From sequence record PV806337.1: DNA of 64,000 bases. The stretch is one strand, 5' to 3'. The stretch is from a phage. A program made the translations under genes and the position numbers. Each line of letters begins with the position of its first letter. Position 1 is the first letter of the stretch. Positions 18,916-63,699 of this stretch are shown here, piece by piece. The notes under the pieces were generated by a model. It was not told the DNA's origin. It worked only from the letters and a program-made list of their open reading frames with translations, and ran no database searches.

Positions 18916-20763
18916 TTACTTAGCTCGAATATCCTGATGTTTCACCCTGCCCATAACCTCATGCTGTTTGCCTGGGTTAAATGGACGAGCACCTGGATTT
19001 CCAAGATACCCACAAACTCGACGAGTTACTTCAAGAGTTTCGGGGTCATGATTACCACAGATAGGGCACTTAAATCCATCTTCGGATGCTATTGTTTCAC
19101 CTAAGAATCCACATTTACCACAAGAATCCACTGGAGTATTAATACCGAAGTAATGAACTTTACTAGCAGCATAATTAATAACCCATTCTAGTGCATCTGG
19201 GAATCGTTTCATATCCGGTAGTTCTACATAGGAAATACACCCACCAGAAGCAATCGGAGTAAAGTTAGATTCATAATCAAATTTCACATTGGGAGCAACT
19301 TTACGTTCCACATCAAGGTGGTGAGAGTTAGTGTAGTATCCTTTGGACAGAATATCTTCATGCTCCGGGAAATATTCACGATCTAAACGGCAAAACCTAT
19401 CACACAGGGACTCTGACGGTGTAGCATACAGGCTATAACCTAACTTAGTTTCTTCCTTCTTCTGATCGACTCTATCTCGCATGTACTGCAATACACGCTG
19501 AACAAACTTGATGCTGGTCTCGGACATTGTGTCTACATCTTTGCCAAACATGAACTGTAGCATTTCATGACAACCAATATATCCTAGAGATACAGAAGCA
19601 CGGTTATAGAAATGATCGAATACGTATTCATCAGGCTCCAAGCGCAGTCCAAAGGCTCCTGACATATAGAGGATGGGTGCAGCTTTAGCTTGAATGTATT
19701 TTAAGCGATCAACTCTCCACTCCAACGCTTTTAATGCTGTATCCACACGTAGCTCAAGCAAATCAAAGAATAGATCAATATTTCCTTCAGCTTCGATAGC
19801 AATTCTAGGCAAGTTTACAGAAACAACACCTAAGTTATTACGACCTGCAGTTTCACCATCTTCTGTAGCAGCTAGGAATGAACGGCAGCCCATAGAAACT
19901 TTATAGTCACCAGTAACTTCCACAACCTTATCATAGCTGATATAATCTGGATACATACGTTCAGCAGTACATTTCATAGCTAACTTCTTGATGTCATAAT
20001 TAACATCCCCTGGTTTCATATTAACGCCATCACGGAGTACAAATACCAGTTTAGGGAAGATAGCTGTACGCTTATTGATACCTAAACCATCCATGCGTAC
20101 TTTCAGTATTGCTTTCTGTACTAGACGTGCTTCCCAAGAAGTTCCTAGACCAAAACCAAAGGTAATAAATGGACTCTGCCCATTAGAGTTGAACATGGTA
20201 TTGATTTCATATTCTAAACCCTGACAAGCGTCATAGACTTCTTTTTCAGTCATCTCCGTAGCCATTACGGATGCTTTGGCTTCATCCTTAGTCCAACGTT
20301 TTGCAAACGCATGATTTTTGTCATAAGATTTACGAACATAAGGGGCTAATACTTCATCAAGGCGATCTACAGAAGTACCACCATACTGATGGGAGCTAAC
20401 CTGAGTGATAATCTGAGCAGTAATAGCCGCCGCAGTAGTGATAGAGTTTGGAGTGCTAATTTCAGCATTACCAACCTTCATACCATTCTTCAACATATCT
20501 TCCAGAGCTACCAGGCAACAGTTAGTCATACCTAATGCAGCATAATCAGCATCATGGAAATGAATATCCCCAATCATATGAGCATTTCGAATCTGAATTG
20601 GCATTTCTTCTAAAATCAGATACTTACTCAATTCACCTGCAAGCATATCCCTTTGTGTAGGGAAACGTTCACTCGGTTTGTTCGCGTTATTAAAAAGTAA
20701 CTCTTCATTGGCAGATCCCTCAATAATTTCCTTACAATTTCTAATCAATTCATCTTTGTTCAT
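18916..20763 (-). CDS. nrdD: anaerobic ribonucleoside-triphosphate reductase (class III RNR)
   Basis: C-terminal zinc site CGKCGF...CPICGNHD and glycyl-radical motif RVCGYLG; 615 aa. Confidence 0.9.
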   Translation of the reverse strand: MNKDELIRNCKEIIEGSANEELLFNNANKPSERFPTQRDMLAGELSKYLILEEMPIQIRNAHMIGDIHFHDADYAALGMTNCCLVALEDMLKNGMKVGNAEISTPNSITTAAAITAQIITQVSSHQYGGTSVDRLDEVLAPYVRKSYDKNHAFAKRWTKDEAKASVMATEMTEKEVYDACQGLEYEINTMFNSNGQSPFITFGFGLGTSWEARLVQKAILKVRMDGLGINKRTAIFPKLVFVLRDGVNMKPGDVNYDIKKLAMKCTAERMYPDYISYDKVVEVTGDYKVSMGCRSFLAATEDGETAGRNNLGVVSVNLPRIAIEAEGNIDLFFDLLELRVDTALKALEWRVDRLKYIQAKAAPILYMSGAFGLRLEPDEYVFDHFYNRASVSLGYIGCHEMLQFMFGKDVDTMSETSIKFVQRVLQYMRDRVDQKKEETKLGYSLYATPSESLCDRFCRLDREYFPEHEDILSKGYYTNSHHLDVERKVAPNVKFDYESNFTPIASGGCISYVELPDMKRFPDALEWVINYAASKVHYFGINTPVDSCGKCGFLGETIASEDGFKCPICGNHDPETLEVTRRVCGYLGNPGARPFNPGKQHEVMGRVKHQDIRAK

Positions 20764-21421
20764 TAATTATTTCCTCAATAAACCTTGCTACTACTTCTGG
20801 CTCAATACTAAAAAATTCTGTAGCACCATCAAAATCTTTATATTGACAATTATATTCCTTAAACTGTAAATGGGTTTCTCTCTCAATATGCATAGCTTTT
20901 GATCTATCTGAAAAGCTATACTCCTTAAATATTTTTAAATCATGTATGTTAGAGGAAGTTTTAATATCTCTGAGTCTATCTTTAGTTCTGCTAGACACAC
21001 CTATTTTGGTTCCCACATTACTTACTAAAATATATACGTTAGTAGGATAATTATCCTTCTCTAATAAACATATAGGACAACCAGAATTATGATTTCTAAC
21101 ACTATCAAGTGTAGACTCCCATTTATGATCATTCTCACAGCTGAACATGATTTTACTCTTGGAATTGATATATTTACCTTCCATCTTTATTCCACGGGCA
21201 GCTAAAGATTCATTTACTTCTTTAAGATCTAAAGTACGGCTAGCACAATAAGGGCAACCTCTACCACCTTTTACGTTATCTACTCTAGCCTCCCAACTAT
21301 GCCCATTAGAGCACTTAAATATAGCCTTGGATTTAGCTGATACATACGTGCTTAGCATAACTATTCCTCTAGGAGCAAGTGCTAAGTTCACATCTTCTGT
21401 AGTTATTTTCTTTCTTACCAT
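20750..21421 (-). CDS. zinc-ribbon x2 plus T5orf172/GIY-YIG-like domain protein (homing-endonuclease-like)
   Basis: Two repeats C..GH.W......CP.C; C-terminal NVYILVSN...KIGVSSR...EFF resembling T5orf172 domain; overlaps nrdD start. Confidence 0.6.
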   Translation of the reverse strand: MVRKKITTEDVNLALAPRGIVMLSTYVSAKSKAIFKCSNGHSWEARVDNVKGGRGCPYCASRTLDLKEVNESLAARGIKMEGKYINSKSKIMFSCENDHKWESTLDSVRNHNSGCPICLLEKDNYPTNVYILVSNVGTKIGVSSRTKDRLRDIKTSSNIHDLKIFKEYSFSDRSKAMHIERETHLQFKEYNCQYKDFDGATEFFSIEPEVVARFIEEIINEQR

Positions 21422-21442
21422 TAAATTCTCCTTAATTCACAT

Positions 21443-21471
21443 ATTATACATAATTCCACCCCATACGTCAA
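21443..21471 (-). promoter_or_regulatory. sigma70-like promoter for 21421 gene and nrdD
   Basis: -35 TTGACG, 17 bp, -10 TATAAT on minus strand; RBS AAGGAG. Confidence 0.6.
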
Positions 21472-21643
21472 CTACATTTTTCTAATACTATTTGACTTTT
21501 GATTTTTATCAATTTTTATTGATGCTATACAGCATAATATCTTTACATATAAATAAATGATTATCTAGTATCATATTTCTACCTTTATAAGCAAGTAAAT
21601 TTTTTATTTAAAAGCAATATCATAGGTTTATTTAAAATTATAC

Positions 21644-21673
21644 TTGCTTTTTGCTGTAAACCTTGTTATAATA
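21644..21673 (+). promoter_or_regulatory. T5-type promoter for phoH
   Basis: -35 TTGCTT, 17 bp, -10 TATAAT about 75 nt upstream of phoH. Confidence 0.65.
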
Positions 21674-21748
21674 TATTTGTAAGTTGATAAACAAGATCTC
21701 TTTGTTGATCCTCTGTTAGAAGCGAAGTACACTATAGGAGTGTTATTT

Positions 21749-22501
21749 ATGGGAAAAGCACGTCAAAAAAGAGAGAACCGCAATGGTTCAAGAAAGCGTG
21801 GCAACAAGTATGAGAATAACGTAATTCAGGCTGATTTTTCTAATGATTACGCTAACCCAGTTGCTAAATCCCTAGTAGGTAAAAACCGCGAGCAAAAATC
21901 ATATATCAATATGATCAAGAACAACACAGTGACTGTGGGCATCGGTGAGCCAGGTACTGGTAAAACCTTTATTCCGTCCGTTCTTGCAGCTCAGGAACTC
22001 GTAGACATTCACTCAGATATTGAGCAAGTGATCCTCGTACGTCCTAATGAACCTCTAGGTAAGTCTCTTGGTATGCTTCCTGGTGATCTAGCAGAAAAGC
22101 TAGAGCCTTGGTTGGAGCCAATAGCTGATGGTATGAAATGGGCCATCGGCGATCATGCCTATAAGGGATATGTCGAACGTCAGAAAATTAAATTTTTGGC
22201 TGTCGAACATGCTCGTGGCAGAACTTTCAACAACTCCTATGTAATTGTCGATGAAGCTCAGAATATTTCCGTTGAGGCAATGATTTGTCTTCTAACTCGT
22301 GTAGGGCAAGACTGCCGTTTAATTATCTGCGGAGATATAGCTCAGAAAGACATTAAAGGTGACTCAGGTCTAGCACTCCTTATGGAAGTCTATGAGAAAT
22401 ACGAAAATGCCCCATTCTCAATGATCGAATTGATTGATAACGTTCGTTCTGTTGAGTCTAAAGCATTCTATGACATCTTTAAAGACATGGGGAAGGTGTA
22501 A
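21749..22501 (+). CDS. phoH: PhoH-like ATPase
   Basis: Walker A GEPGTGKTF, Walker B VIVDEAQN; track start 21740 is GTG, ATG at 21749 with AGGAG upstream. Confidence 0.85.
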   Translation: MGKARQKRENRNGSRKRGNKYENNVIQADFSNDYANPVAKSLVGKNREQKSYINMIKNNTVTVGIGEPGTGKTFIPSVLAAQELVDIHSDIEQVILVRPNEPLGKSLGMLPGDLAEKLEPWLEPIADGMKWAIGDHAYKGYVERQKIKFLAVEHARGRTFNNSYVIVDEAQNISVEAMICLLTRVGQDCRLIICGDIAQKDIKGDSGLALLMEVYEKYENAPFSMIELIDNVRSVESKAFYDIFKDMGKV

Positions 22502-22502
22502 T

Positions 22503-22724
22503 ATGGGAAACGTCGTTCATCTGAGCCGTAAAACTAAAATACATCGTACTTCACTGAGTGCTGCTAATATGATTACACGTAAGGAAGGGGAAGAAAGTCC
22601 TAAGACAACCCTAGCGTGGAAAATTGTAACCTCAAATCCAAATAAACCATTCAATTATAACGAGTTGAGCACCTCCATAGATATTCTATTAAAAGAAGTA
22701 GCTAGAACTAAAGTAATTGAATAA
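22503..22724 (+). CDS. hypothetical protein (73 aa)
   Basis: ATG at 22503 with RBS GGGGAAGG; track start 22434 lies inside phoH. Confidence 0.5.
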   Translation: MGNVVHLSRKTKIHRTSLSAANMITRKEGEESPKTTLAWKIVTSNPNKPFNYNELSTSIDILLKEVARTKVIE

Positions 22725-22866
22725 GCTAAAAAGCTAGACTGGTAATATACAGGGCCTGGGTATGAAAATACTCGGGCCTTTTCTATCAGAAAATTTTATT
22801 TGCCTAATGACCGATAATAAAGTAGAATATTCCTTAAATCCTGATAACTATAAAAAGGAAAGCCAA

Positions 22867-25197
22867 ATGAGCCATCGCATTGAAAAAGTAATTAAACGTG
22901 ACGGTACTGTAGAAGACTTTGCTCCTGAAAAAATCAATGGTTGGGCAGAGTATGGTTGCAAAACAGTTGATGTAAGCTGGTCAGCCATTACTATGGCTGC
23001 TCAAAAAACTCTGCCTAAAGGGGTTGTAGATTCCGACACTCTGATGGATGCATTAATTAAAGCTGCTGAAAGTCTTATTAAAGATAATCCAGCATACGAT
23101 GTGCCAGCAAAGGAATTACGTCTTGCGCAAATGCGTAAACGCCTTTATGACTCTTTCGAACCACCTTCTTTACGCTTCTTCCATGACCACATGGTTAGCG
23201 TAGGTGCATGGGAAGACATGAGTGCATGGATTACCGATGAGCAATTTGAAGCTCTGAATCAGGTTATCGACCATGATCGTGACCGTCTTTTTACTAGTGG
23301 TGGGCTGAAGCAGTTCTTTGATAAGTATTCCCGTCGTAATATAGCCACTGGTGAAATTTATGAAACCCCGCAATTCGCCTACATGGGTATGGCAATGGCG
23401 ATGTTATCTCAACCTAACTGGACAATTCTAGATGCAATCGACCTCTACAACGCAATGTCGCTCCACAAAATCAACGTTCCTACGCCGCCACTGGTTGGTC
23501 TGCGCTCTAGTGACCGTGGATTTGCTAGTTGCTGTCTCGTGGATTCCACTGACACGTTGGATTCAATCGACACCGCCGAGCACATCGTCTTCAAAATGGT
23601 CGCAGCCAGAGCGGGAATCGGGTATCATCTTGAAAGCCGATCAATTGCTGATCCGGTGCGAAATGGGGCATTCCCGCATTCCGGAAAACTGCCATATTAT
23701 CGACACATTGACCGCTCAGTAAAGGCCAATACTCAGCAAACTCGTGGTGGTTCTGCTACAGTGTCTTATCCATACTTCGACCCTGAAATCATTCAATTGA
23801 TGCAGGTTAAGCAACAACGTGCTACAGATGAGAATAAAATCGATAAGATGGATTATTCTCTGAGCTTTAACAATCTTTTGTTAAAACGTTATCTTAAAAA
23901 CGAAGATATTACGCTAATGTCATACTTCTATGCTCCAGAAGTTCATGAAGCGTTTTATAGTGATGACGAGGCTAAATTTGAAGAAATCTACGTGGCAGCG
24001 GAGAAACGTGTGGCATCTCTTACAAAGATCGACCACGAAGGAAAAACAGTTCCTGCAGCTCCTAAAGTCTCTGCAAAAGAAATCCTAGATACTTGGCTAC
24101 GTATCCGAATGGAAACAGGACGTATGTATGCTCACCACATTGGGGAATCTAATCGTCACGGTAACTTCCTTGATCCGATCCGTATGACAAACCTTTGTGT
24201 TGAAATTACTCAGCCTACACGCCCGTTCCATCACATTACAGAGCTGTACAAGACAAAAGAGCAGCTTGATCAAATGAAGCCGGAGGATATTGGTGAAGTA
24301 TCTCTGTGTAACTTAGGTGGTGTTGTACTTGGACGCATGGAATCTCTGGCTGAGTGGGAAAAAACTTGCTACATCCTTCTGAAGTTTGTTGATACAATTA
24401 TTGAAATTCAGGATTATCCGTTCCCAACTATGGAATATACGGCCAAGAAACGTCGTAATGTCGGTATTGGCCTAATGAACGCAGCAGGTGCAATGGCAGC
24501 AGAAGGTCTGGCTTACGAAGGTATTGAAGCTCGTAACTGGATCCACCGTGAGGCTGAAAAACTGTCTTACTTCCTGCATAAAGCCTCTGTACGCCTGGCT
24601 AAGGAACAGGGTGCATGTGAGTGGTTTGATCGTACTAAACCATCTAAAGGAATTCTGGTAATCGACACGTACAAGAAAACTGTTGATGAGCTGGTATCCG
24701 TAGGTCTAGAAATGGACTGGGAGTCTCTGCGTGCAGATATTCTGAAATATGGTATGCGTAACTCTGTTCTGACTGCTCAGATGCCGGGAGAAAGTTCTTC
24801 TGTTCTGTTAGGTGTTACTAACTCTATCGAACCACCTCGTAAGATTGTATCTATCAAGGGTAGTGCAGTAAATAAAGTAATTGCAATTGCTCCAGGTGCA
24901 ACCGATTGGGAAACGTTAATGAGCTATAAATTGGCTTATGATGTAGATCGTATCGAGTGGATCAAATGGGTAGCAACTATGCAGAAATTCTTCAGCCAGT
25001 CTGTTAGTACTAATATGTACTACGACTACACCAAGTTTGAGAATGAAATTATTCCTGGCCCAGTAGTAGTTCGTGATTTCATGACTGCTGTTAAATACGG
25101 GTGGAAAACTTGGTATTATGCTAACTTCAACACCGCAAATGGTGGTGGTGCTGGAGAAGAAGCAGCTGGTTGTGCATCAGGCGGTTGTACTATTTAA
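22867..25197 (+). CDS. nrdA: ribonucleotide reductase class Ia large subunit
   Basis: N-terminal ATP-cone-like region, C-terminal redox pair GCASGGC; likely start M36 of track ORF with RBS AAAGGAAAG. Confidence 0.9.
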   Translation: MSHRIEKVIKRDGTVEDFAPEKINGWAEYGCKTVDVSWSAITMAAQKTLPKGVVDSDTLMDALIKAAESLIKDNPAYDVPAKELRLAQMRKRLYDSFEPPSLRFFHDHMVSVGAWEDMSAWITDEQFEALNQVIDHDRDRLFTSGGLKQFFDKYSRRNIATGEIYETPQFAYMGMAMAMLSQPNWTILDAIDLYNAMSLHKINVPTPPLVGLRSSDRGFASCCLVDSTDTLDSIDTAEHIVFKMVAARAGIGYHLESRSIADPVRNGAFPHSGKLPYYRHIDRSVKANTQQTRGGSATVSYPYFDPEIIQLMQVKQQRATDENKIDKMDYSLSFNNLLLKRYLKNEDITLMSYFYAPEVHEAFYSDDEAKFEEIYVAAEKRVASLTKIDHEGKTVPAAPKVSAKEILDTWLRIRMETGRMYAHHIGESNRHGNFLDPIRMTNLCVEITQPTRPFHHITELYKTKEQLDQMKPEDIGEVSLCNLGGVVLGRMESLAEWEKTCYILLKFVDTIIEIQDYPFPTMEYTAKKRRNVGIGLMNAAGAMAAEGLAYEGIEARNWIHREAEKLSYFLHKASVRLAKEQGACEWFDRTKPSKGILVIDTYKKTVDELVSVGLEMDWESLRADILKYGMRNSVLTAQMPGESSSVLLGVTNSIEPPRKIVSIKGSAVNKVIAIAPGATDWETLMSYKLAYDVDRIEWIKWVATMQKFFSQSVSTNMYYDYTKFENEIIPGPVVVRDFMTAVKYGWKTWYYANFNTANGGGAGEEAAGCASGGCTI

Positions 25198-37856: not shown

Positions 37857-37885
37857 TTGCTTGAATGCTAAATTCTCTGTATAAT
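37857..37885 (+). promoter_or_regulatory. T5-type promoter for Toprim gene
   Basis: -35 TTGCTT, 17 bp, -10 TATAAT. Confidence 0.7.
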
Positions 37886-37915
37886 ATATCTATAAATTTG
37901 AGAGAGGAACCAAAT

Positions 37916-38434
37916 ATGAATGTTGATGAGCTAACACAGCACCTCTTATCCAGAGGATTTGATACAGATAAATATCATTGCTGGTTAAGTCCGGAAGGAT
38001 GGCTAACAGTCCCGTTGTATGACTTCTCCGGGATGTTGCGAGGCTATCAGACGTATAATCCTTCTGCTCCAAAAGGTCATGGTAAGTGTCCCTTTGAAGC
38101 TAAATATTTTACTTATTCTACTACCCAGTGTGTATGGGGACTAGAAACTCTCAATGGAGATGAAAAAGTAGTATTGATCGCTGAATCTGTATTTAAGGCA
38201 GTTGCGCTACATAACGCTGGTTATCCAGCCCTGGCAATGTTAGGTTCTTCTCCAGGAAAAGCGTTATTAAAGCAACTGAAATTATTACCTTTTAAATTGG
38301 TAGCTGTCGGAGACAACGATCCTGCGGGTGAAAAATTTGCTAGAAAATTAAACGGCTTTGTTTCTCCCGTAGATGTGGATGAGATGTCTACCGAAAACTT
38401 GAAAAATTTTCTTGCTATGAAGCTAAATTTCTAA
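37916..38434 (+). CDS. Toprim-domain protein (possible RNase M5-like/primase-like nuclease)
   Basis: Toprim Glu (VVLIAESVFKAV) and DxD (AVGDNDPAGEKFARKL); likely start M18 of track ORF. Confidence 0.6.
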   Translation: MNVDELTQHLLSRGFDTDKYHCWLSPEGWLTVPLYDFSGMLRGYQTYNPSAPKGHGKCPFEAKYFTYSTTQCVWGLETLNGDEKVVLIAESVFKAVALHNAGYPALAMLGSSPGKALLKQLKLLPFKLVAVGDNDPAGEKFARKLNGFVSPVDVDEMSTENLKNFLAMKLNF

Positions 38435-40352: not shown

Positions 40353-40427
40353 GCACCTTTAGCTGAGATGGATTAGCGCTTGCCTGAAGAGCTTGAGAGG
40401 TTGGATCGTTACCAACGGGGTGCTCCA
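40353..40427 (+). tRNA. tRNA-like, possibly Phe (anticodon GAA), non-canonical T-loop
   Basis: Acceptor GCACCTT/GGGGTGC, D-arm GCTG...TAGC, anticodon loop CTGAAGA with mismatched stem, T-arm GTTGG-ATCGTTA-CCAAC, CCA. Confidence 0.45.
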
Positions 40428-40786: not shown

Positions 40787-40862
40787 CGACCGTTGGCTGA
40801 ATGGCTTAGGCGAAGGATTGCAAATCCTTTTTATGTGAGTTCAAATCTCATGCGGTCGTCCA
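40787..40862 (+). tRNA. tRNA-Cys (anticodon GCA)
   Basis: Acceptor CGACCGT/GCGGTCG, anticodon stem AAGGA/TCCTT with loop TTGCAAA, T-loop TTCAAAT, CCA; promoter directly upstream. Confidence 0.8.
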
Positions 40863-40883
40863 AATTACTAAAGGAAAGAAGTA

Positions 40884-41402
40884 GTGCATACAAAAGTTTT
40901 TGATAGTTTGGTAAAGAAAGGCGTTGTTACTAACGAGCCCTTCTATATAACCGCAGAACTAATCCAGAGATTTATGGAAGAATATATAAATCTTTCAGGA
41001 ACCAATGGTAATACCAAAAAGAATACAAATACTATGTATTCGAGAAAACTTGCTGCACTTTCCTTTATAAAGTTTAAGCAGGAAAATAAACTTCCTATTT
41101 CTGAAGGTTTTGTATACTGTATTAGTAATCCTGCATGGAAAAATCAGTATAAAATAGGTATGAGTCAAAATCCAAAAGAGAGATTAGCTCAATATCAGAC
41201 TTATTCCCCTTATAGGGATTATAAGTTAGAGCATTGGTCTTTTTGGTTTGACAAACGAAAAGGTGAAAAACTAATTCACCAGTATTTCAAAGATTTAAAA
41301 GAACATGAGTGGTTTAGTATAAATTCTAGGGATCTTAGTAAATATCTAGAACGTATTAACTCTAGTTCTGACTTATATGGTTCCTTAGCTCTAATTGGTT
41401 AG
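40884..41402 (+). CDS. T5orf172/GIY-YIG-like domain protein
   Basis: GFVYCISNPAWKNQYKIGMSQNPKERL...EWF; GTG start with RBS AAGGAAAG; last 24 nt overlap a tRNA 5' end. Confidence 0.6.
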   Translation: MHTKVFDSLVKKGVVTNEPFYITAELIQRFMEEYINLSGTNGNTKKNTNTMYSRKLAALSFIKFKQENKLPISEGFVYCISNPAWKNQYKIGMSQNPKERLAQYQTYSPYRDYKLEHWSFWFDKRKGEKLIHQYFKDLKEHEWFSINSRDLSKYLERINSSSDLYGSLALIG

Positions 41403-41456
41403 AGCGGCATCTTGTTAAGTTGAGGGTTGCTGGTTCGAATCCTGCAGGAACCGCCA
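41379..41456 (+). tRNA. tRNA, probable Asn (anticodon GTT)
   Basis: Perfect acceptor GGTTCCT/AGGAACC, D-arm GCTC...GAGC, loop TTGTTAA, T-loop TTCGAAT, CCA; 5' end overlaps CDS 40884-41402. Confidence 0.6.
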
Positions 41457-60802: not shown

Positions 60803-60840
60803 GGCCAGGACTTAATTGTTCTGGCCTTTTGAGTACATAT
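60803..60840 (+). terminator. rho-independent terminator
   Basis: GGCCAG-GACTTAATTGTT-CTGGCC followed by TTTT. Confidence 0.65.
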
Positions 60841-60854
60841 AAAAGGAGACTATA

Positions 60855-61088
60855 GTGGAAATTGTATTAGTTATTCTTGCAATAGCACTATTATTCGCAA
60901 TCAGCGTATCTATTAAAAAGACTCGTGATCTTAATAGGACTATAGATGATAACAGAAAACTACGTGGTGAAAAGGCTAGGCTTAACCTACAACATGAAGC
61001 TCTGAAGTTATTTGTAGTTCAGGGCAATAGAAACCATACTCCTGAAGACTTTATTAAACAGCTTAAAAAGCACTTAGGGCTCAAATAA
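60855..61088 (+). CDS. small membrane protein (77 aa, GTG start)
   Basis: RBS AAGGAG; N-terminal TM IVLVILAIALLFAISV. Confidence 0.45.
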   Translation: MEIVLVILAIALLFAISVSIKKTRDLNRTIDDNRKLRGEKARLNLQHEALKLFVVQGNRNHTPEDFIKQLKKHLGLK

Positions 61089-61273: not shown

Positions 61274-61875
61274 TGACTTTTAATGCGCAACAATCTATTC
61301 AAGTAGTGCCAGATCATGAACTGAACACATGGGATTATAGCTTTAAAGATTTAACCGCTACTGTACAATTTAAATCTATGAAGCTAACATTTGCACACAC
61401 TGACCTTAGAGCATGTAAAGGTCTTGAGGATAAGCTCGAAGATGCTCGCAAGATTTTTGGTAAGGCTCGCATCCCAGCTGATAATCTAATTAACGCATTA
61501 ATCGATGCAGGGTACAAACTTGTGAAGACTGAGGTGAACCGCCCTAGTACTCCAGTGACTATTAGAGATCCGTGGCAGTCAGGGACAATCGCAATGCTGA
61601 ATAAATCATCGGATTTGCACAATGTTCCTTGTGGGGGTGTGATAAGTAGTACGCAGTCATATAAGTTTGGGGAAGATTACGGCCCTTCTGTACAGTTGAA
61701 ACATACTCAAGAAGCTTTTGAATCTGATATGCGAAGCGTAGCACCTGCGGATGCTGAAGGTTTTAGAAGTCCCATCTATGTTACTCACTTTAATAATCTT
61801 AGGCCTGGGAGTATAAATGATGCTATCCTTGAAGCGTTGGGAGCTGCTATTAATGAAGATAAGAGGGGTAATTAA
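61273..61875 (+). CDS. hypothetical protein (200 aa)
   Basis: Track ORF. Confidence 0.55.
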   Translation: MTFNAQQSIQVVPDHELNTWDYSFKDLTATVQFKSMKLTFAHTDLRACKGLEDKLEDARKIFGKARIPADNLINALIDAGYKLVKTEVNRPSTPVTIRDPWQSGTIAMLNKSSDLHNVPCGGVISSTQSYKFGEDYGPSVQLKHTQEAFESDMRSVAPADAEGFRSPIYVTHFNNLRPGSINDAILEALGAAINEDKRGN

Positions 61876-62600
61876 TGAGTATAAAAAAGAATTTAGCAGA
61901 GATTATTAAGTTAGCTAGAGCTTGTAATGGAAAATGTGTTTCTCAGCTTAATGAACTAGAAGCACATGCAGTAGCATTTTGTGCAGAGTTTTATCCTGCA
62001 TACCTTAATGCTAGTGGGCAACCTAAATATAATAAGGATGCCGAAGAAGTTACGTTAGCTCCTTCATATATTAGCTTGCGTCGTTTAATTCAAACCGTTG
62101 ATCCTACTATTAAAGGATTCTCAGCAGATTCATTCCACGTCTTTGCAGATAAAGAACTCCCGTATTTTAAAGAAGGAAATGCAAAGTCATGTTTAGAATG
62201 TTATCCTAATATACTGATGATTCCTCAAAAGCAATGTAAATACGATCATCTTCCTAGACTTACAAAGAAAGTAGCACCACCTTATTCTTCTCTATCTGAA
62301 TTAAAGCTAGGAATTGTATCTACACTTGCGCAGATTCATCTAAGTATAGTTGACGACTCAACAACATCTAACCCTATTCTAGATGCTGCTCACTTTGAAA
62401 TTTTACGTGATCCTGAACAAGCTAGAAAAGTTGCTAAGTCTGTTAAGTTTGATATATCAACAATTCTTGACACTAAACAAGAAACTAGACCTAGAGGAAG
62501 TGTAGATTATTCTGCGCTAAATTCCGAGTCATCTTACTTAGCAACATTCCTTTTCATGGCGTCAAAAGGGGTTATTCTAAAGGTTAATAAAGATGGATGA
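61875..62600 (+). CDS. hypothetical protein (241 aa)
   Basis: Track ORF. Confidence 0.55.
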   Translation: MSIKKNLAEIIKLARACNGKCVSQLNELEAHAVAFCAEFYPAYLNASGQPKYNKDAEEVTLAPSYISLRRLIQTVDPTIKGFSADSFHVFADKELPYFKEGNAKSCLECYPNILMIPQKQCKYDHLPRLTKKVAPPYSSLSELKLGIVSTLAQIHLSIVDDSTTSNPILDAAHFEILRDPEQARKVAKSVKFDISTILDTKQETRPRGSVDYSALNSESSYLATFLFMASKGVILKVNKDG

Positions 62601-63321
62601 TTTACGTGCTGAAATTAATAAAAAGTTACGAGAGGAAGCCCGGAGGTTTCCTCTTAAAAACTTTTTGAAGTCAAATGGCTCTACTAATATAACGAAGATT
62701 AGGCAACTTCACCCTGACTTCCAACAAGAGGCCTTAAACCTTATCTTTATTAGGAAAGCTTTAAAAGTCCAGAAAGAAGAGTATGGGTATGAAAGAGTTA
62801 ATTATAAGACAGCCAATCAGTTAGTAGAGATATGGTGCTATAAACATAAAGGATACTTTATGCAAACTGCTAGATCTCACCTAGATGGGCACGGTTGTTT
62901 ACAATGTGCTAGGGAAAGCAACCTAAATACACCTATCGAGAAACCGGAGGTAGAAGAAGATGTTCAGTCCCCCACATATCTCTATATCTTCTCTAATAAA
63001 GATCAGTCTAGGAAGAAATTAAAGACAAAGATTGGGGTTTCTAGAGAGCCACATCAAAGGTTTAAGAATCTAGAGTATGATAAATTGCGTGTGCCGGGTT
63101 TTGAAGATATGGAAGTATTTGGTATCTACCAGTATAAGAAAGGATCGAAAGAACTCGCTTACAAAATAGAACACCAAGCACATAAATTTTTCGAGAATAA
63201 ATTTGCTAACCATTATAAATTCGATGGAGCAAAAGAGATATTCAACATTAAAGCTGTAGAGGCAGAAGAATATCTATTAAGTCAAGGTTGCATAAAAATT
63301 TACCCAACTCCAAACTCATGA
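62593..63321 (+). CDS. zinc-ribbon plus T5orf172/GIY-YIG-like domain protein
   Basis: N-terminal CYKHKGYF...GHGCLQCAR; C-terminal YLYIFSNKDQ...KIGVSREPHQR...GAKEIF, same family as 20750-21421 and 40884-41402. Confidence 0.6.
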   Translation: MDDLRAEINKKLREEARRFPLKNFLKSNGSTNITKIRQLHPDFQQEALNLIFIRKALKVQKEEYGYERVNYKTANQLVEIWCYKHKGYFMQTARSHLDGHGCLQCARESNLNTPIEKPEVEEDVQSPTYLYIFSNKDQSRKKLKTKIGVSREPHQRFKNLEYDKLRVPGFEDMEVFGIYQYKKGSKELAYKIEHQAHKFFENKFANHYKFDGAKEIFNIKAVEAEEYLLSQGCIKIYPTPNS

Positions 63322-63348
63322 CAAAAATTTAAAAGTAACGAAATCTGC

Positions 63349-63378
63349 TTGACATTCGTGAGAATAATGTGTTATAAT
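63349..63378 (+). promoter_or_regulatory. sigma70 consensus promoter facing the repeat region
   Basis: -35 TTGACA, 18 bp, -10 TATAAT; no ORF downstream within window. Confidence 0.6.
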
Positions 63379-63699
63379 AATCTCATAGATTAAAAACATC
63401 AACTTGTTTTTACCTCTAGGCCGTAGATTTACATCATTCCTCGTAGGAAAACACTTGATGACGGTTCTGCTCGCAGGTTCTCGTCAATTGTTCTTCCACA
63501 CCGAGACTTAGGAGGATGTATCAAATCGCACGCGCCTAGAGGGGCTAACTCTCATGAAATGGGGGTATATTTACTTTTAAATAACTAAAAAATATTTAAA
63601 GGCAATATCTGTGTTCAAGATGATACACCTGTTGCCGCTCTCCATCTCTAGGATCACATACACTTTCCTAGAAACTCCAGAGTTCTCACTAAATACTCA

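What the first reader, a model, noticed from the sequence alone, without database searches (positions are those of the whole stretch)
20750..21421. Three T5orf172/GIY-YIG-like domain genes scattered through the window
ORFs at 20750-21421, 40884-41402 and 62593-63321 share a C-terminal block (hydrophobic YI[FL], KIG[VM]S, conserved Arg/Glu, EFF/EIF/EWF) typical of the T5orf172 nuclease-like domain; two also carry N-terminal zinc ribbons. Their placement beside nrdD, inside the tRNA array and at the module boundary is typical of mobile homing-endonuclease-like genes.
Basis: partly seen in the sequence, partly recalled or inferred. Interest (0 to 1): 0.5.

Follow-up and report, generated by a model that had tools for sequence, protein, structure and literature searches.

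The report
Three mobile nuclease genes in T5-like phage
The window comes from a T5-like phage and carries three selfish "homing endonuclease"-type nuclease genes of the T5orf172 family, each a clean insertion that close relatives lack; this kind of gene is already documented in T5-like phages, so the finding is correct but ordinary.

Summary
ORFs 20750-21421(-), 40884-41402(+) and 62593-63321(+) all pass Pfam's curated T5orf172 cut-off, and they are the only three copies in the window. Gene 1 has two treble-clef zinc fingers (DUF4379/CapR type) and gene 3 has one. Gene 2 has a helical N-terminal module instead.

The window is a Tequintavirus (T5-like phage). Each gene is a presence/absence polymorphism among close relatives:
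- Site 1 is empty in EC148, holds an HNH gene in SSP1, and holds a 45%-identical allele in AKFV33.
- Site 2 is empty in NBSal003.
- Site 3 is empty in oldekolle.

Flanking sequence shows recombinational import. At site 1, identity to EC148 is 100% in the backbone and decays towards the gene. At site 3, a 1.6-kb block is 100% identical to DaisyDussoix. Gene 2 travels with a different tRNA-Asn allele.

The Tyr/Arg/Glu catalytic positions are conserved, dN/dS is 0.03-0.35, and an AlphaFold model of gene 2 matches GIY-YIG nucleases best (modest scores). Cleavage and homing were not shown.

Barth et al. 2023 already describe T5orf172 homing endonuclease genes (HEGs) as abundant in T5-like phages, near ribonucleotide reductase genes. 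Verdict: already known, low-to-moderate interest. The side points worth following are the tRNA-Asn allele swap and T5.023 as a nuclease-less relative of gene 3.

The parts
20750..21421 (-). g1: free-standing T5orf172 gene, 223 aa. Two tandem treble-clef zinc-finger modules (aa 29-61 = nt 21239-21337; aa 80-118 = nt 21068-21184) followed by the T5orf172 nuclease domain (aa 127-218 = nt 20768-21043).
   Evidence: dN/dS 0.15 against YJin-2024a and 0.35 against the AKFV33 allele
21443..21471 (-). Promoter-like site TTGACG-17-TATAAT (11 of 12 matches), 22 nt upstream of the g1 ATG and inside the inserted segment.
   Evidence: a consensus match only, not shown to function
20749..21554 (.). Site-1 cassette: 806 nt that replace 203 nt of the empty-site phage EC148. 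It rewrites the first codons of nrdD (MNKDE... instead of MNRNEELKYKEMQA...).
20000..21750 (.). Co-conversion-like tract around g1. Identity to EC148 is 100% outside it and falls to 75-82% next to the cassette. In nrdD, 44 synonymous and 1 non-synonymous codon differences.
   Evidence: crossover points vary between g1-bearing phages (NG_A1)
18916..20763 (-). nrdD (anaerobic ribonucleotide reductase), the conserved neighbour whose 5' end is remodelled by the g1 cassette.
40884..41402 (+). g2: 172-aa T5orf172 gene, positional ortholog of T5.069. Helical N-terminal module (aa 1-67 = nt 40884-41084) followed by the T5orf172 domain (aa 75-158 = nt 41106-41357). No zinc finger.
   Evidence: dN/dS 0.06 against T5
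41379..41456 (+). tRNA-Asn(GTT) 'type A' allele. Its 5' end overlaps the last 24 nt of g2, and it travels with g2-family genes. HEG-less phages carry an unrelated 'type B' 5' two-thirds.
40867..41431 (.). Site-2 cassette: 565 nt (g2 plus the 5' two-thirds of type-A tRNA-Asn) that replace 61 nt in NBSal003. The left edge is the 3' end of tRNA-Cys and the right edge is the T-arm of tRNA-Asn.
40787..40862 (+). tRNA-Cys, left border of the site-2 cassette.
62593..63321 (+). g3: 242-aa chimeric T5orf172 gene. The N-module plus one CxxH...CxxC finger (aa 1-106 = nt 62593-62910) is 63% identical to T5.023. The T5orf172 domain is aa 129-226 (nt 62977-63270).
   Evidence: dN/dS 0.03 against slur09
62599..63335 (.). 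Site-3 insert: 737 nt that correspond to 6 nt in phage oldekolle.
61850..63450 (.). Block (ORF X 61875-62600 plus g3) that is 100% identical to phage DaisyDussoix while the surrounding sequence is 67-96% identical, indicating recent lateral transfer of the block.

Best explanation
The three ORFs are free-standing homing-endonuclease-type genes of the T5orf172 branch of the GIY-YIG nuclease superfamily, in a T5-like phage (Tequintavirus).

Inferred mechanism: during mixed infection with a related phage that lacks the gene, the protein's N-terminal DNA-recognition module binds a site in or beside the empty allele. That module is two treble-clef zinc fingers in g1, one in g3, and a helical module in g2. 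The C-terminal nuclease domain (Tyr, Arg and Glu active site) then cuts nearby. Recombinational repair from the gene-bearing genome copies the gene, plus a variable length of flanking sequence, into the recipient.

What is shown here: family membership, conserved catalytic positions, intact genes under purifying selection, clean presence/absence polymorphism at all three sites, other endonuclease genes occupying the same site, and flanking-sequence patterns expected from such repair.

What is inferred: nuclease activity, target sites, and present-day homing.

Site by site:
- g1 carries its own promoter-like element and a rewritten nrdD start.
- g2 carries a replacement tRNA-Asn allele. Its target is probably in or next to the alternative (type B) tRNA-Asn gene, as with T4/T6 SegB, which cuts in tRNA genes.
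- g3 is a fusion of a T5.023-like DNA-binding module with a nuclease domain, and it moves together with the upstream ORF X.
For: - Family: T5orf172 and MUG113 pass curated cut-offs for all three; DUF4379 and CapR pass for g1. PHROG 'endonuclease' phrog_681 matches g1 (1.9e-49) and g3 (1.3e-22).
- Active site: Y/KIG/R/E/E[FWI]F positions are present in all three. In the g2 family, G75, Y78, K90, G92, R100, E128, E142 and W143 are invariant down to 28% identity.
- Selection: dN/dS 0.03-0.35, no stop codons in orthologs.
- Site 1 polymorphism: only 15 of 446 records cover the region. It is empty in EC148, holds an HNH_3+AP2 gene on the other strand in SSP1, and holds a 45%-identical ZnF-T5orf172 allele in AKFV33.
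- Site 2 polymorphism: 82 of 450 records have g2; NBSal003 has tRNA-Cys and tRNA-Asn 10 nt apart.
- Site 3 polymorphism: 737 nt against 6 nt in oldekolle; full-length g3 occurs in about 35 records.
- Co-conversion: identity to EC148 is 100% at 19000-19999 and 21750-23400 and falls to 75-82% next to g1, with 44 synonymous and 1 non-synonymous changes in nrdD. NG_A1 has the identical cassette with a different crossover point. A block 100% identical to DaisyDussoix covers X plus g3.
- tRNA-Asn linkage: type A is in 134 records and type B in 291. A 47%-identical g2 homolog in Klebsiella T5-like phages ends 15 nt before a type-A tRNA-Asn.
- Independent assortment among relatives: mar004NP2 is g1-/g2+/g3-; slur09 is g2-/g3+; EC148 is g1-/g2-; oldekolle is g2-/g3-.
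- Literature: T5orf172 HEGs are abundant in T5-like phages, carry CapR/DUF4379-type fingers and sit near RNR genes (PMC10448857). The T5orf172 protein Odn cleaves DNA and its E180A mutant is dead (PMC8263062). SegB cuts within tRNA genes (PMC13096335).
Against: - No cleavage, target site or homing cross exists for any of the three proteins or, as far as I found, for any T5-encoded T5orf172 protein.
- The Pfam GIY-YIG model is not passed.
- No related solved structure is detectable by sequence.
- At site 2 the flanks show sharp borders rather than a graded tract.
- The tRNA-Asn/g2 association is not perfect: S124 has type A about 1.1 kb from its g2-like gene, and oselot has a g2-like gene together with type B.
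- The dN/dS values rest on few substitutions.
- Purifying selection and the retention of g2 in T5, BF23 and many relatives would also fit a function useful to the phage.
Confidence: 0.78

Rival explanations
1. The genes are retained because they benefit the phage rather than spreading selfishly. One possibility is sequence-specific nucleases directed against competing phages, satellites or host DNA, like ICP1 Odn. Another, for g2, is a SegB-like driver of recombination or amplification in the tRNA cluster that helps against tRNA-targeting host defences.
For: Purifying selection on all three. g2 is retained in T5, BF23 and about 80 relatives at 95% identity or more, and always in the same slot. 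g2 co-travels with an alternative, apparently functional tRNA-Asn (51.7 bits). Precedents exist in PMC8263062 (Odn) and PMC13096335 (SegB amplifies tRNA loci against Septu).
Against: Each gene is present in a minority of otherwise near-identical genomes and assorts independently. The same site can hold a different class of endonuclease gene. PADLOC gives only weak domain-level matches. This reading is not exclusive of homing; SegB does both.
Confidence: 0.12
2. The pattern is ordinary insertion/deletion mosaicism. The genes are passive cargo, or inactive relics, that are lost by deletion and shuffled by general recombination, with no nuclease-driven mobility.
For: T5-like genomes are highly mosaic, especially in the tRNA region. 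Nuclease-less relatives such as T5.023 show that decay or truncation does occur in this family.
Against: A simple deletion would leave flanks identical up to the junction. Instead, divergence rises towards g1 on both sides in an otherwise 100% identical backbone. The ORFs are intact with conserved catalytic positions and low dN/dS. Different endonuclease classes recur at one site. The identical cassette is found with different crossover points.
Confidence: 0.06

Closest known systems
T5orf172 homing endonuclease genes of ICP1, T5-like and other phages (Barth, Dunham & Seed 2023, PMC10448857); Odn/Gp88 of ICP1 (PMC8263062)
   Same: Same Pfam domain. Same architecture for g1 and g3: an N-terminal CapR/DUF4379-type zinc-finger repeat followed by a C-terminal T5orf172 domain. 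Free-standing, located next to a ribonucleotide reductase gene, with turnover of endonuclease classes at one site, repeated DNA-binding modules and domain shuffling. T5-like phages are explicitly listed as enriched.
   Different: The paper is a survey. It does not describe these particular loci, the nrdD start rewrite, the tRNA-Asn allele swap or the T5.023 relationship. g2 lacks any zinc finger, which is the minority architecture in that survey. Odn is a domesticated anti-satellite nuclease with a RepA_N module.
T4/T6 SegB, a free-standing GIY-YIG homing endonuclease in the tRNA gene cluster (PMC13096335 and work cited there)
   Same: For g2: a free-standing nuclease gene embedded among phage tRNA genes, with its 3' end touching the next tRNA gene. 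SegB cuts within tRNA genes and drives preferential inheritance or recombination of the tRNA region.
   Different: SegB is a canonical GIY-YIG (Seg family) protein of T-even phages. g2 is a T5orf172-branch protein with a different N-terminal module. No sequence relationship to SegB was tested here, and no cleavage data exist for g2.
T4 I-TevI and the Seg/Mob free-standing endonucleases near nrd genes (own knowledge; structure 1ln0)
   Different: Domain order is reversed: I-TevI has the nuclease at the N-terminus, and here it is at the C-terminus. The Pfam GIY-YIG model is not passed. I-TevI is intron-encoded.
PLE CapR, a domesticated zinc-finger module of a T5orf172 HEG acting as a repressor (PMC10448857 and the Netter et al. 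preprint 10.1101/2020.11.28.402263 listed)
   Same: T5.023 of T5 stands to g3 as CapR stands to the ICP1 HEGs: the same DNA-binding module without the nuclease domain. g1 passes the Pfam CapR model (35.5 bits).
   Different: T5.023 is phage-encoded, not satellite-encoded. Its function is unknown, and it passes no Pfam model.

Membership tests
Pfam T5orf172 (PF10544) / MUG113 (PF13455) | Whole-protein HMM score at or above the curated gathering cut-off | tested here: met
   g1 41.7, g2 47.6 and g3 27.6 bits against a cut-off of 20; MUG113 38.3, 59.3 and 23.5 against 22.3
GIY-YIG nuclease superfamily | Match to the Pfam GIY-YIG catalytic-domain model PF01541 above its cut-off | tested here: not met
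   Only g2 matches, at 13.6 bits against 22.6; g1 and g3 give no hit at E of 1 or less. T5orf172 is a separate model that the literature places in the same superfamily (PMC8263062).
GIY-YIG nuclease superfamily | Conserved catalytic positions: Tyr of the first strand, the 'YIG'-equivalent strand, Arg in helix 1 and the metal-binding Glu | tested here: met
   g1 Y130, K139-I-G141, R149, E180; g2 Y78, K90-I-G92, R100, E128; g3 Y131, K146-I-G148, R156, E193. These positions are invariant in 25 g2-family sequences down to 28% identity. Equivalence to I-TevI R27/E75 is by analogy with the published Odn alignment, not by my own structural superposition.
GIY-YIG nuclease superfamily | GIY-YIG alpha/beta fold | tested here: met
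Free-standing homing endonuclease gene | Presence/absence polymorphism at the same locus among closely related genomes, outside any intron or intein | tested here: met
   Site 1. Site 2. Site 3.
Free-standing homing endonuclease gene | Co-conversion of flanking markers with the gene | tested here: met
   Graded divergence on both sides of g1 in a 100%-identical backbone. Variable crossover points. A 100%-identical X+g3 block in a diverged context. A tRNA-Asn allele swap with g2. This is pattern evidence, not an observed event.
Free-standing homing endonuclease gene | Site-specific cleavage of the gene-less allele, with resistance of the gene-bearing allele | not testable with these tools
   Needs purified protein and empty-site DNA substrates.
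Free-standing homing endonuclease gene | Nuclease-dependent biased inheritance in mixed infection | not testable with these tools
   Needs phage crosses with active-site mutants.
DUF4379 / CapR treble-clef zinc-finger DNA-binding module | HMM score above the cut-off and a Cys/His ligand pattern | tested here: met
   g1: DUF4379 56.4 bits (2 stretches) and CapR 35.5 bits, with ligands C37,H41,C56,C59 and C95,H99,C115,C118 read from the sequence.
DUF4379 / CapR treble-clef zinc-finger DNA-binding module | The same, for g3 | tested here: inconclusive
   No Pfam hit for the g3 N-terminus. However, the pattern C82-x2-H85-x16-C102-x2-C105 is present, the region is covered by phrog_681 (52-234) and phrog_4605, and the ligands are conserved in T5.023.
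SegB / Seg family | Sequence membership in the Seg family of canonical GIY-YIG proteins | not tested
   No SegB sequence or model was compared. The resemblance claimed is positional and functional only.
Known anti-phage defence systems (PADLOC) | A significant match to a defence-system protein model beyond the shared nuclease domain | tested here: not met
   Only PDC-S57 at 16-30 bits, over the T5orf172 domain alone, for g1 and g2; none for g3.

The most novel reading that the evidence does not exclude
The g2 family may be a tRNA-gene-specific homing system that carries its own replacement tRNA. Homing would then swap one phage tRNA-Asn gene (type B, 291 records) for an unrelated-sequence isoacceptor (type A, 134 records). 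In that case a selfish nuclease drives allele turnover of phage tRNAs, which could change susceptibility to host tRNA-targeting defences. In parallel, T5.023, which is conserved in about 300 T5-like genomes, may be a domesticated nuclease-less copy of the g3 DNA-binding module that regulates or protects the same DNA site.
Probability: 0.15. Interest if true: 0.6.

Novelty: already known. Interest (0 to 1): 0.27.

Why it matters
The finding mainly serves as confirmation. It shows that three 'hypothetical protein' genes in this phage are mobile nuclease genes of a published kind, and it gives exact cassette borders and empty-site partners that make experiments easy to design.

In practice, these genes and their co-converted flanks distort phylogenies and identity-based taxonomy of Tequintaviruses. 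They should be masked in such analyses, a point the BASEL authors also raise (PMC8594841).

Three details are testable additions to the existing picture of how such genes reshape essential loci:
- the rewritten nrdD start;
- a tRNA-Asn allele that travels with g2;
- a widespread nuclease-less relative of g3.

Tried and rejected
- Sequence search of all three proteins against PDB chains gave only noise: GBP5, antibody chains, KsgA, uL23.
- The Pfam GIY-YIG model was sub-threshold.
- PADLOC gave only weak domain-level PDC-S57 hits, so a defence-system reading was dropped.
- I tried to verify that T5.069 (172 aa) is the ORF that gave T5orf172 its name. Iyer et al. 2002 is not held, and older T5 and BF23 records label the ORF only T5p067 or 'ORF trn 2.8'. 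It remains a plausible but unverified inference.
- I tested whether T5.022 or T5.023 retain a decayed nuclease domain. Neither has a Pfam family, and BLASTP homology to g3 stops right after the zinc finger. Only the PHROG profile match extends to g3 residue 144.
- I considered that the cluster of silent changes in nrdD next to g1 is an immunity (cleavage-resistance) variant. I rejected it as a requirement, because NG_A1 has the identical cassette with an EC148-type nrdD flank.
- I looked for further endonuclease classes among ten mid-sized ORFs in and around the tRNA region and found none.
- The N-terminal module of g2 matched nothing informative outside its own family.
- I ran no further search on g1 and g3, because Pfam already places them.
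Full report
**Identity of the window.** Megablast of the three regions against 50,697 phage records finds 440-530 matching records, almost all Salmonella or Escherichia T5-like phages (Demerecviridae, Tequintavirus). The best matches are 97-99.5% identical: SA001, YJin-2024a, AZ23/AZ21/NG_A1, mar004NP2 and DaisyDussoix. The window runs antiparallel to the T5 map, and its last 250 nt correspond to T5 10436-10187, the border of the left terminal repeat.

**The observation.** The three ORFs exist exactly as described.
- All pass Pfam's curated cut-offs for T5orf172 (41.7, 47.6 and 27.6 bits against 20) and for the closely related MUG113 model.
- g1 also has two DUF4379 treble-clef zinc-finger stretches (56.4 bits) and passes the CapR model.
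- g3 has one C-x2-H-x16-C-x2-C module that only PHROG profiles cover (phrog_681 'endonuclease' and phrog_4605).
- g2 has no finger. Its N-terminal 67 residues form three helices in a confident AlphaFold model (pLDDT 90).
- A domain HMM and jackhmmer against all 587 stop-to-stop segments find exactly these three copies.
- Ten other mid-sized ORFs in and around the tRNA region show no HNH, LAGLIDADG or GIY-YIG domains.

**Is it a nuclease domain?** The Pfam GIY-YIG model is not passed (13.6 bits for g2 only), and PDB sequence searches give noise. Three lines still support a GIY-YIG-type active site.
- The Tyr / K-I-G / Arg / Glu / E-[FWI]-F positions align in all three proteins.
- In 25 g2-family proteins down to 28% identity, the invariant columns include G75, Y78, K90, G92, R100, E128, E142 and W143.

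**Site 1 (g1, beside nrdD).** Only 15 of 446 records cover the region fully. Four states occur:
- empty (EC148);
- the window-type gene (YJin, SA001, NG_A1);
- a 45%-identical allele with the same architecture (AKFV33 orf100);
- an HNH_3+AP2 gene on the opposite strand (SSP1).

Against EC148 the window is 100% identical over 19000-19999 and 21750-23400. Identity falls progressively to 75-82% next to an 806-nt cassette (20749-21554) that replaces 203 nt of EC148. The cassette supplies a promoter-like element (21471-21443, 11 of 12 matches) and a new nrdD start: MNKDE... instead of MNRNEELKYKEMQA..., which is 9 residues shorter. The g1 stop codon overlaps the nrdD ATG.

Within nrdD there are 44 synonymous and 1 non-synonymous codon differences, 19 of them in the ~95 nt next to the cassette. 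This exact flank variant occurs in only 7 records, all of which bear g1. NG_A1 has a cassette 100% identical to the window's, but its nrdD flank is EC148-type to within a few bases of the junction. Crossover points therefore differ between events, as expected for repair-mediated co-conversion. The silent cluster is a passenger and not a requirement for self-immunity. The right-flank variant (21555-21750) is shared by the three g1-bearing phages examined and differs from EC148, SSP1 and AKFV33.

**Site 2 (g2, in the tRNA array).** T5 has the positional ortholog T5.069, also 172 aa, between tRNA-Cys and tRNA-Asn with the same 24-nt overlap onto tRNA-Asn. BASEL annotators call the DaisyDussoix ortholog 'putative homing endonuclease'. 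Only 82 of 450 records have it. NBSal003 has tRNA-Cys and tRNA-Asn 10 nt apart, and SP15 and slur09 have an unrelated 152-nt spacer.

The cassette (40867-41431) begins at the end of tRNA-Cys and ends in the T-arm of tRNA-Asn, so it brings a different 5' two-thirds of tRNA-Asn. Both alleles have anticodon GTT and pass the Rfam tRNA threshold: type A 51.7 bits, type B 59.0 bits. Type A is in 134 records and type B in 291. In Klebsiella T5-like phages a 47%-identical g2 homolog ends 15 nt upstream of a type-A tRNA-Asn.

The association has exceptions: S124 and oselot. slur09 carries g2 paralogs in other inter-tRNA slots. The closest functional analog is SegB of T4/T6, a free-standing GIY-YIG endonuclease in the tRNA cluster that cuts within tRNA genes (PMC13096335). 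By analogy, I infer that the g2 target lies in or beside the type-B tRNA-Asn gene.

**Site 3 (g3, at the early-region / terminal-repeat border).** Full-length g3 occurs in about 35 records. In about 300 others only residues 1-106 match, at about 62% identity. That match is T5.023, a 148-aa protein with the same N-module and zinc finger but no nuclease domain and no Pfam family. It lies at a different locus, in the T5.024-T5.022 block, which this window lacks. DaisyDussoix has both genes.

Oldekolle has ORF X but only 6 nt where the window has the 737-nt g3 insert (62599-63335). T5 has the unrelated T5.018 in place of X plus g3. A block at 61850-63450 (X plus g3) is 100% identical to DaisyDussoix, while neighbouring sequence is 67-96% identical. 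This indicates recent transfer of the block. g3 has no promoter of its own and overlaps the stop codon of X.

**Interpretation.** The three genes assort independently among near-identical genomes: mar004NP2 is g1-/g2+/g3-, slur09 is g2-/g3+, EC148 is g1-/g2-, and oldekolle is g2-/g3-. The pattern as a whole is what free-standing homing endonuclease genes produce:
- clean replacement-type indels;
- other endonuclease genes occupying the same site;
- graded or block-wise flank exchange;
- a conserved active site;
- purifying selection.

A simple-deletion model does not explain flank divergence rising towards the gene in a 100%-identical backbone. A purely regulatory model does not fit which residues are invariant. 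A beneficial, domesticated role cannot be excluded and need not conflict with homing, as the SegB and Odn precedents show.

**Comparison with what is known.** Barth, Dunham & Seed (2023, PMC10448857) report that T5orf172 HEGs are abundant in T5-like phages. They describe CapR/DUF723/DUF4379 zinc-finger DNA-binding modules, often repeated, and note that 33% of the gene neighbourhoods contain ribonucleotide reductase genes. They also report that HEG classes turn over at a given site and that HEGs bound regions of genetic exchange. g1 and g3 fit that description point by point. g2 is the finger-less minority architecture and is probably the eponymous T5 ORF (unverified).

GenBank already holds proteins 99% or more identical to these, annotated 'T5orf172 domain-containing protein', 'GIY-YIG nuclease family protein' or 'putative homing endonuclease'. 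The finding is therefore correct and already known in kind. Three locus-level details were not found described in the papers I could search and are worth a bench test: the nrdD start rewrite with variable crossover points, the tRNA-Asn allele that travels with g2, and T5.023 as a widespread nuclease-less relative of g3.

**Limits.**
- No biochemical or genetic evidence exists for these proteins.
- The target sites are unknown.
- Only one of the three proteins was modelled.
- Counts of records are inflated by duplicate GenBank/RefSeq entries and by the sampling bias of the collection.
- Association statements rest on the summary counts and on the rows that the tools displayed.

Noticed in passing
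window 40353-40424 (+): A tRNA-Phe-like gene with a non-canonical T-arm (GTTGG-ATCGTTA-CCAAC). ARAGORN does not call it. Rfam tRNA scores it 31.5 bits (cut-off 29), against 42.4 bits for the orthologous tRNA-Phe of SP15. It may be a weakened or variant tRNA.
   Followed up: partly
window about 60830-60945; T5 NC_005859 12916-13850 (L009): The T5.024-T5.023-T5.022 block (about 930 nt) is absent from this phage. T5.023 is a 148-aa protein with the N-module and zinc finger of g3 (63% identity) but no nuclease domain. It is present in about 300 T5-like records and could be a domesticated or decayed endonuclease relative.
   Followed up: partly
L011 (SP15) 1664-1815; L012 (slur09) 2044-2195: A 152-nt sequence unrelated to g2 sits between tRNA-Cys and type-B tRNA-Asn in some relatives. 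It has no Rfam match and no annotation, and its nature is unknown.
   Followed up: partly
L012 (slur09) about 487-985: An unannotated g2 paralog lies between tRNA-Tyr and tRNA-Glu (70% nt identity to window 41106-41249), and slur09 has a second g2-like copy at 102047-102460. g2-family genes therefore occupy several different inter-tRNA slots in different T5-like phages.
   Followed up: no
window 63349-63378 (+): A perfect sigma-70 consensus (TTGACA-18-TATAAT with an upstream TG) lies 14 nt to the right of the g3 insert border and points towards the terminal-repeat border.
   Followed up: no
window 61875-62600 (+): ORF X (241 aa, phrog_8993, no Pfam family) is translationally coupled to g3 and lies with it in the block 100% identical to DaisyDussoix. 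T5 has the unrelated T5.018 at this position.
   Followed up: partly
window 37865-38434 (+): A 189-aa ORF with a Toprim domain matches only the middle of a DNA-primase PHROG profile (positions 141-337 of 435). It sits inside the tRNA region and could be a fragment or a small Toprim protein.
   Followed up: no
L002 (SSP1) 1985-2476: The alternative occupant of site 1 in SSP1 is an HNH_3 + AP2-domain endonuclease gene on the opposite strand. It is inserted into an EC148-type intergenic region and leaves the nrdD start unchanged.
   Followed up: yes
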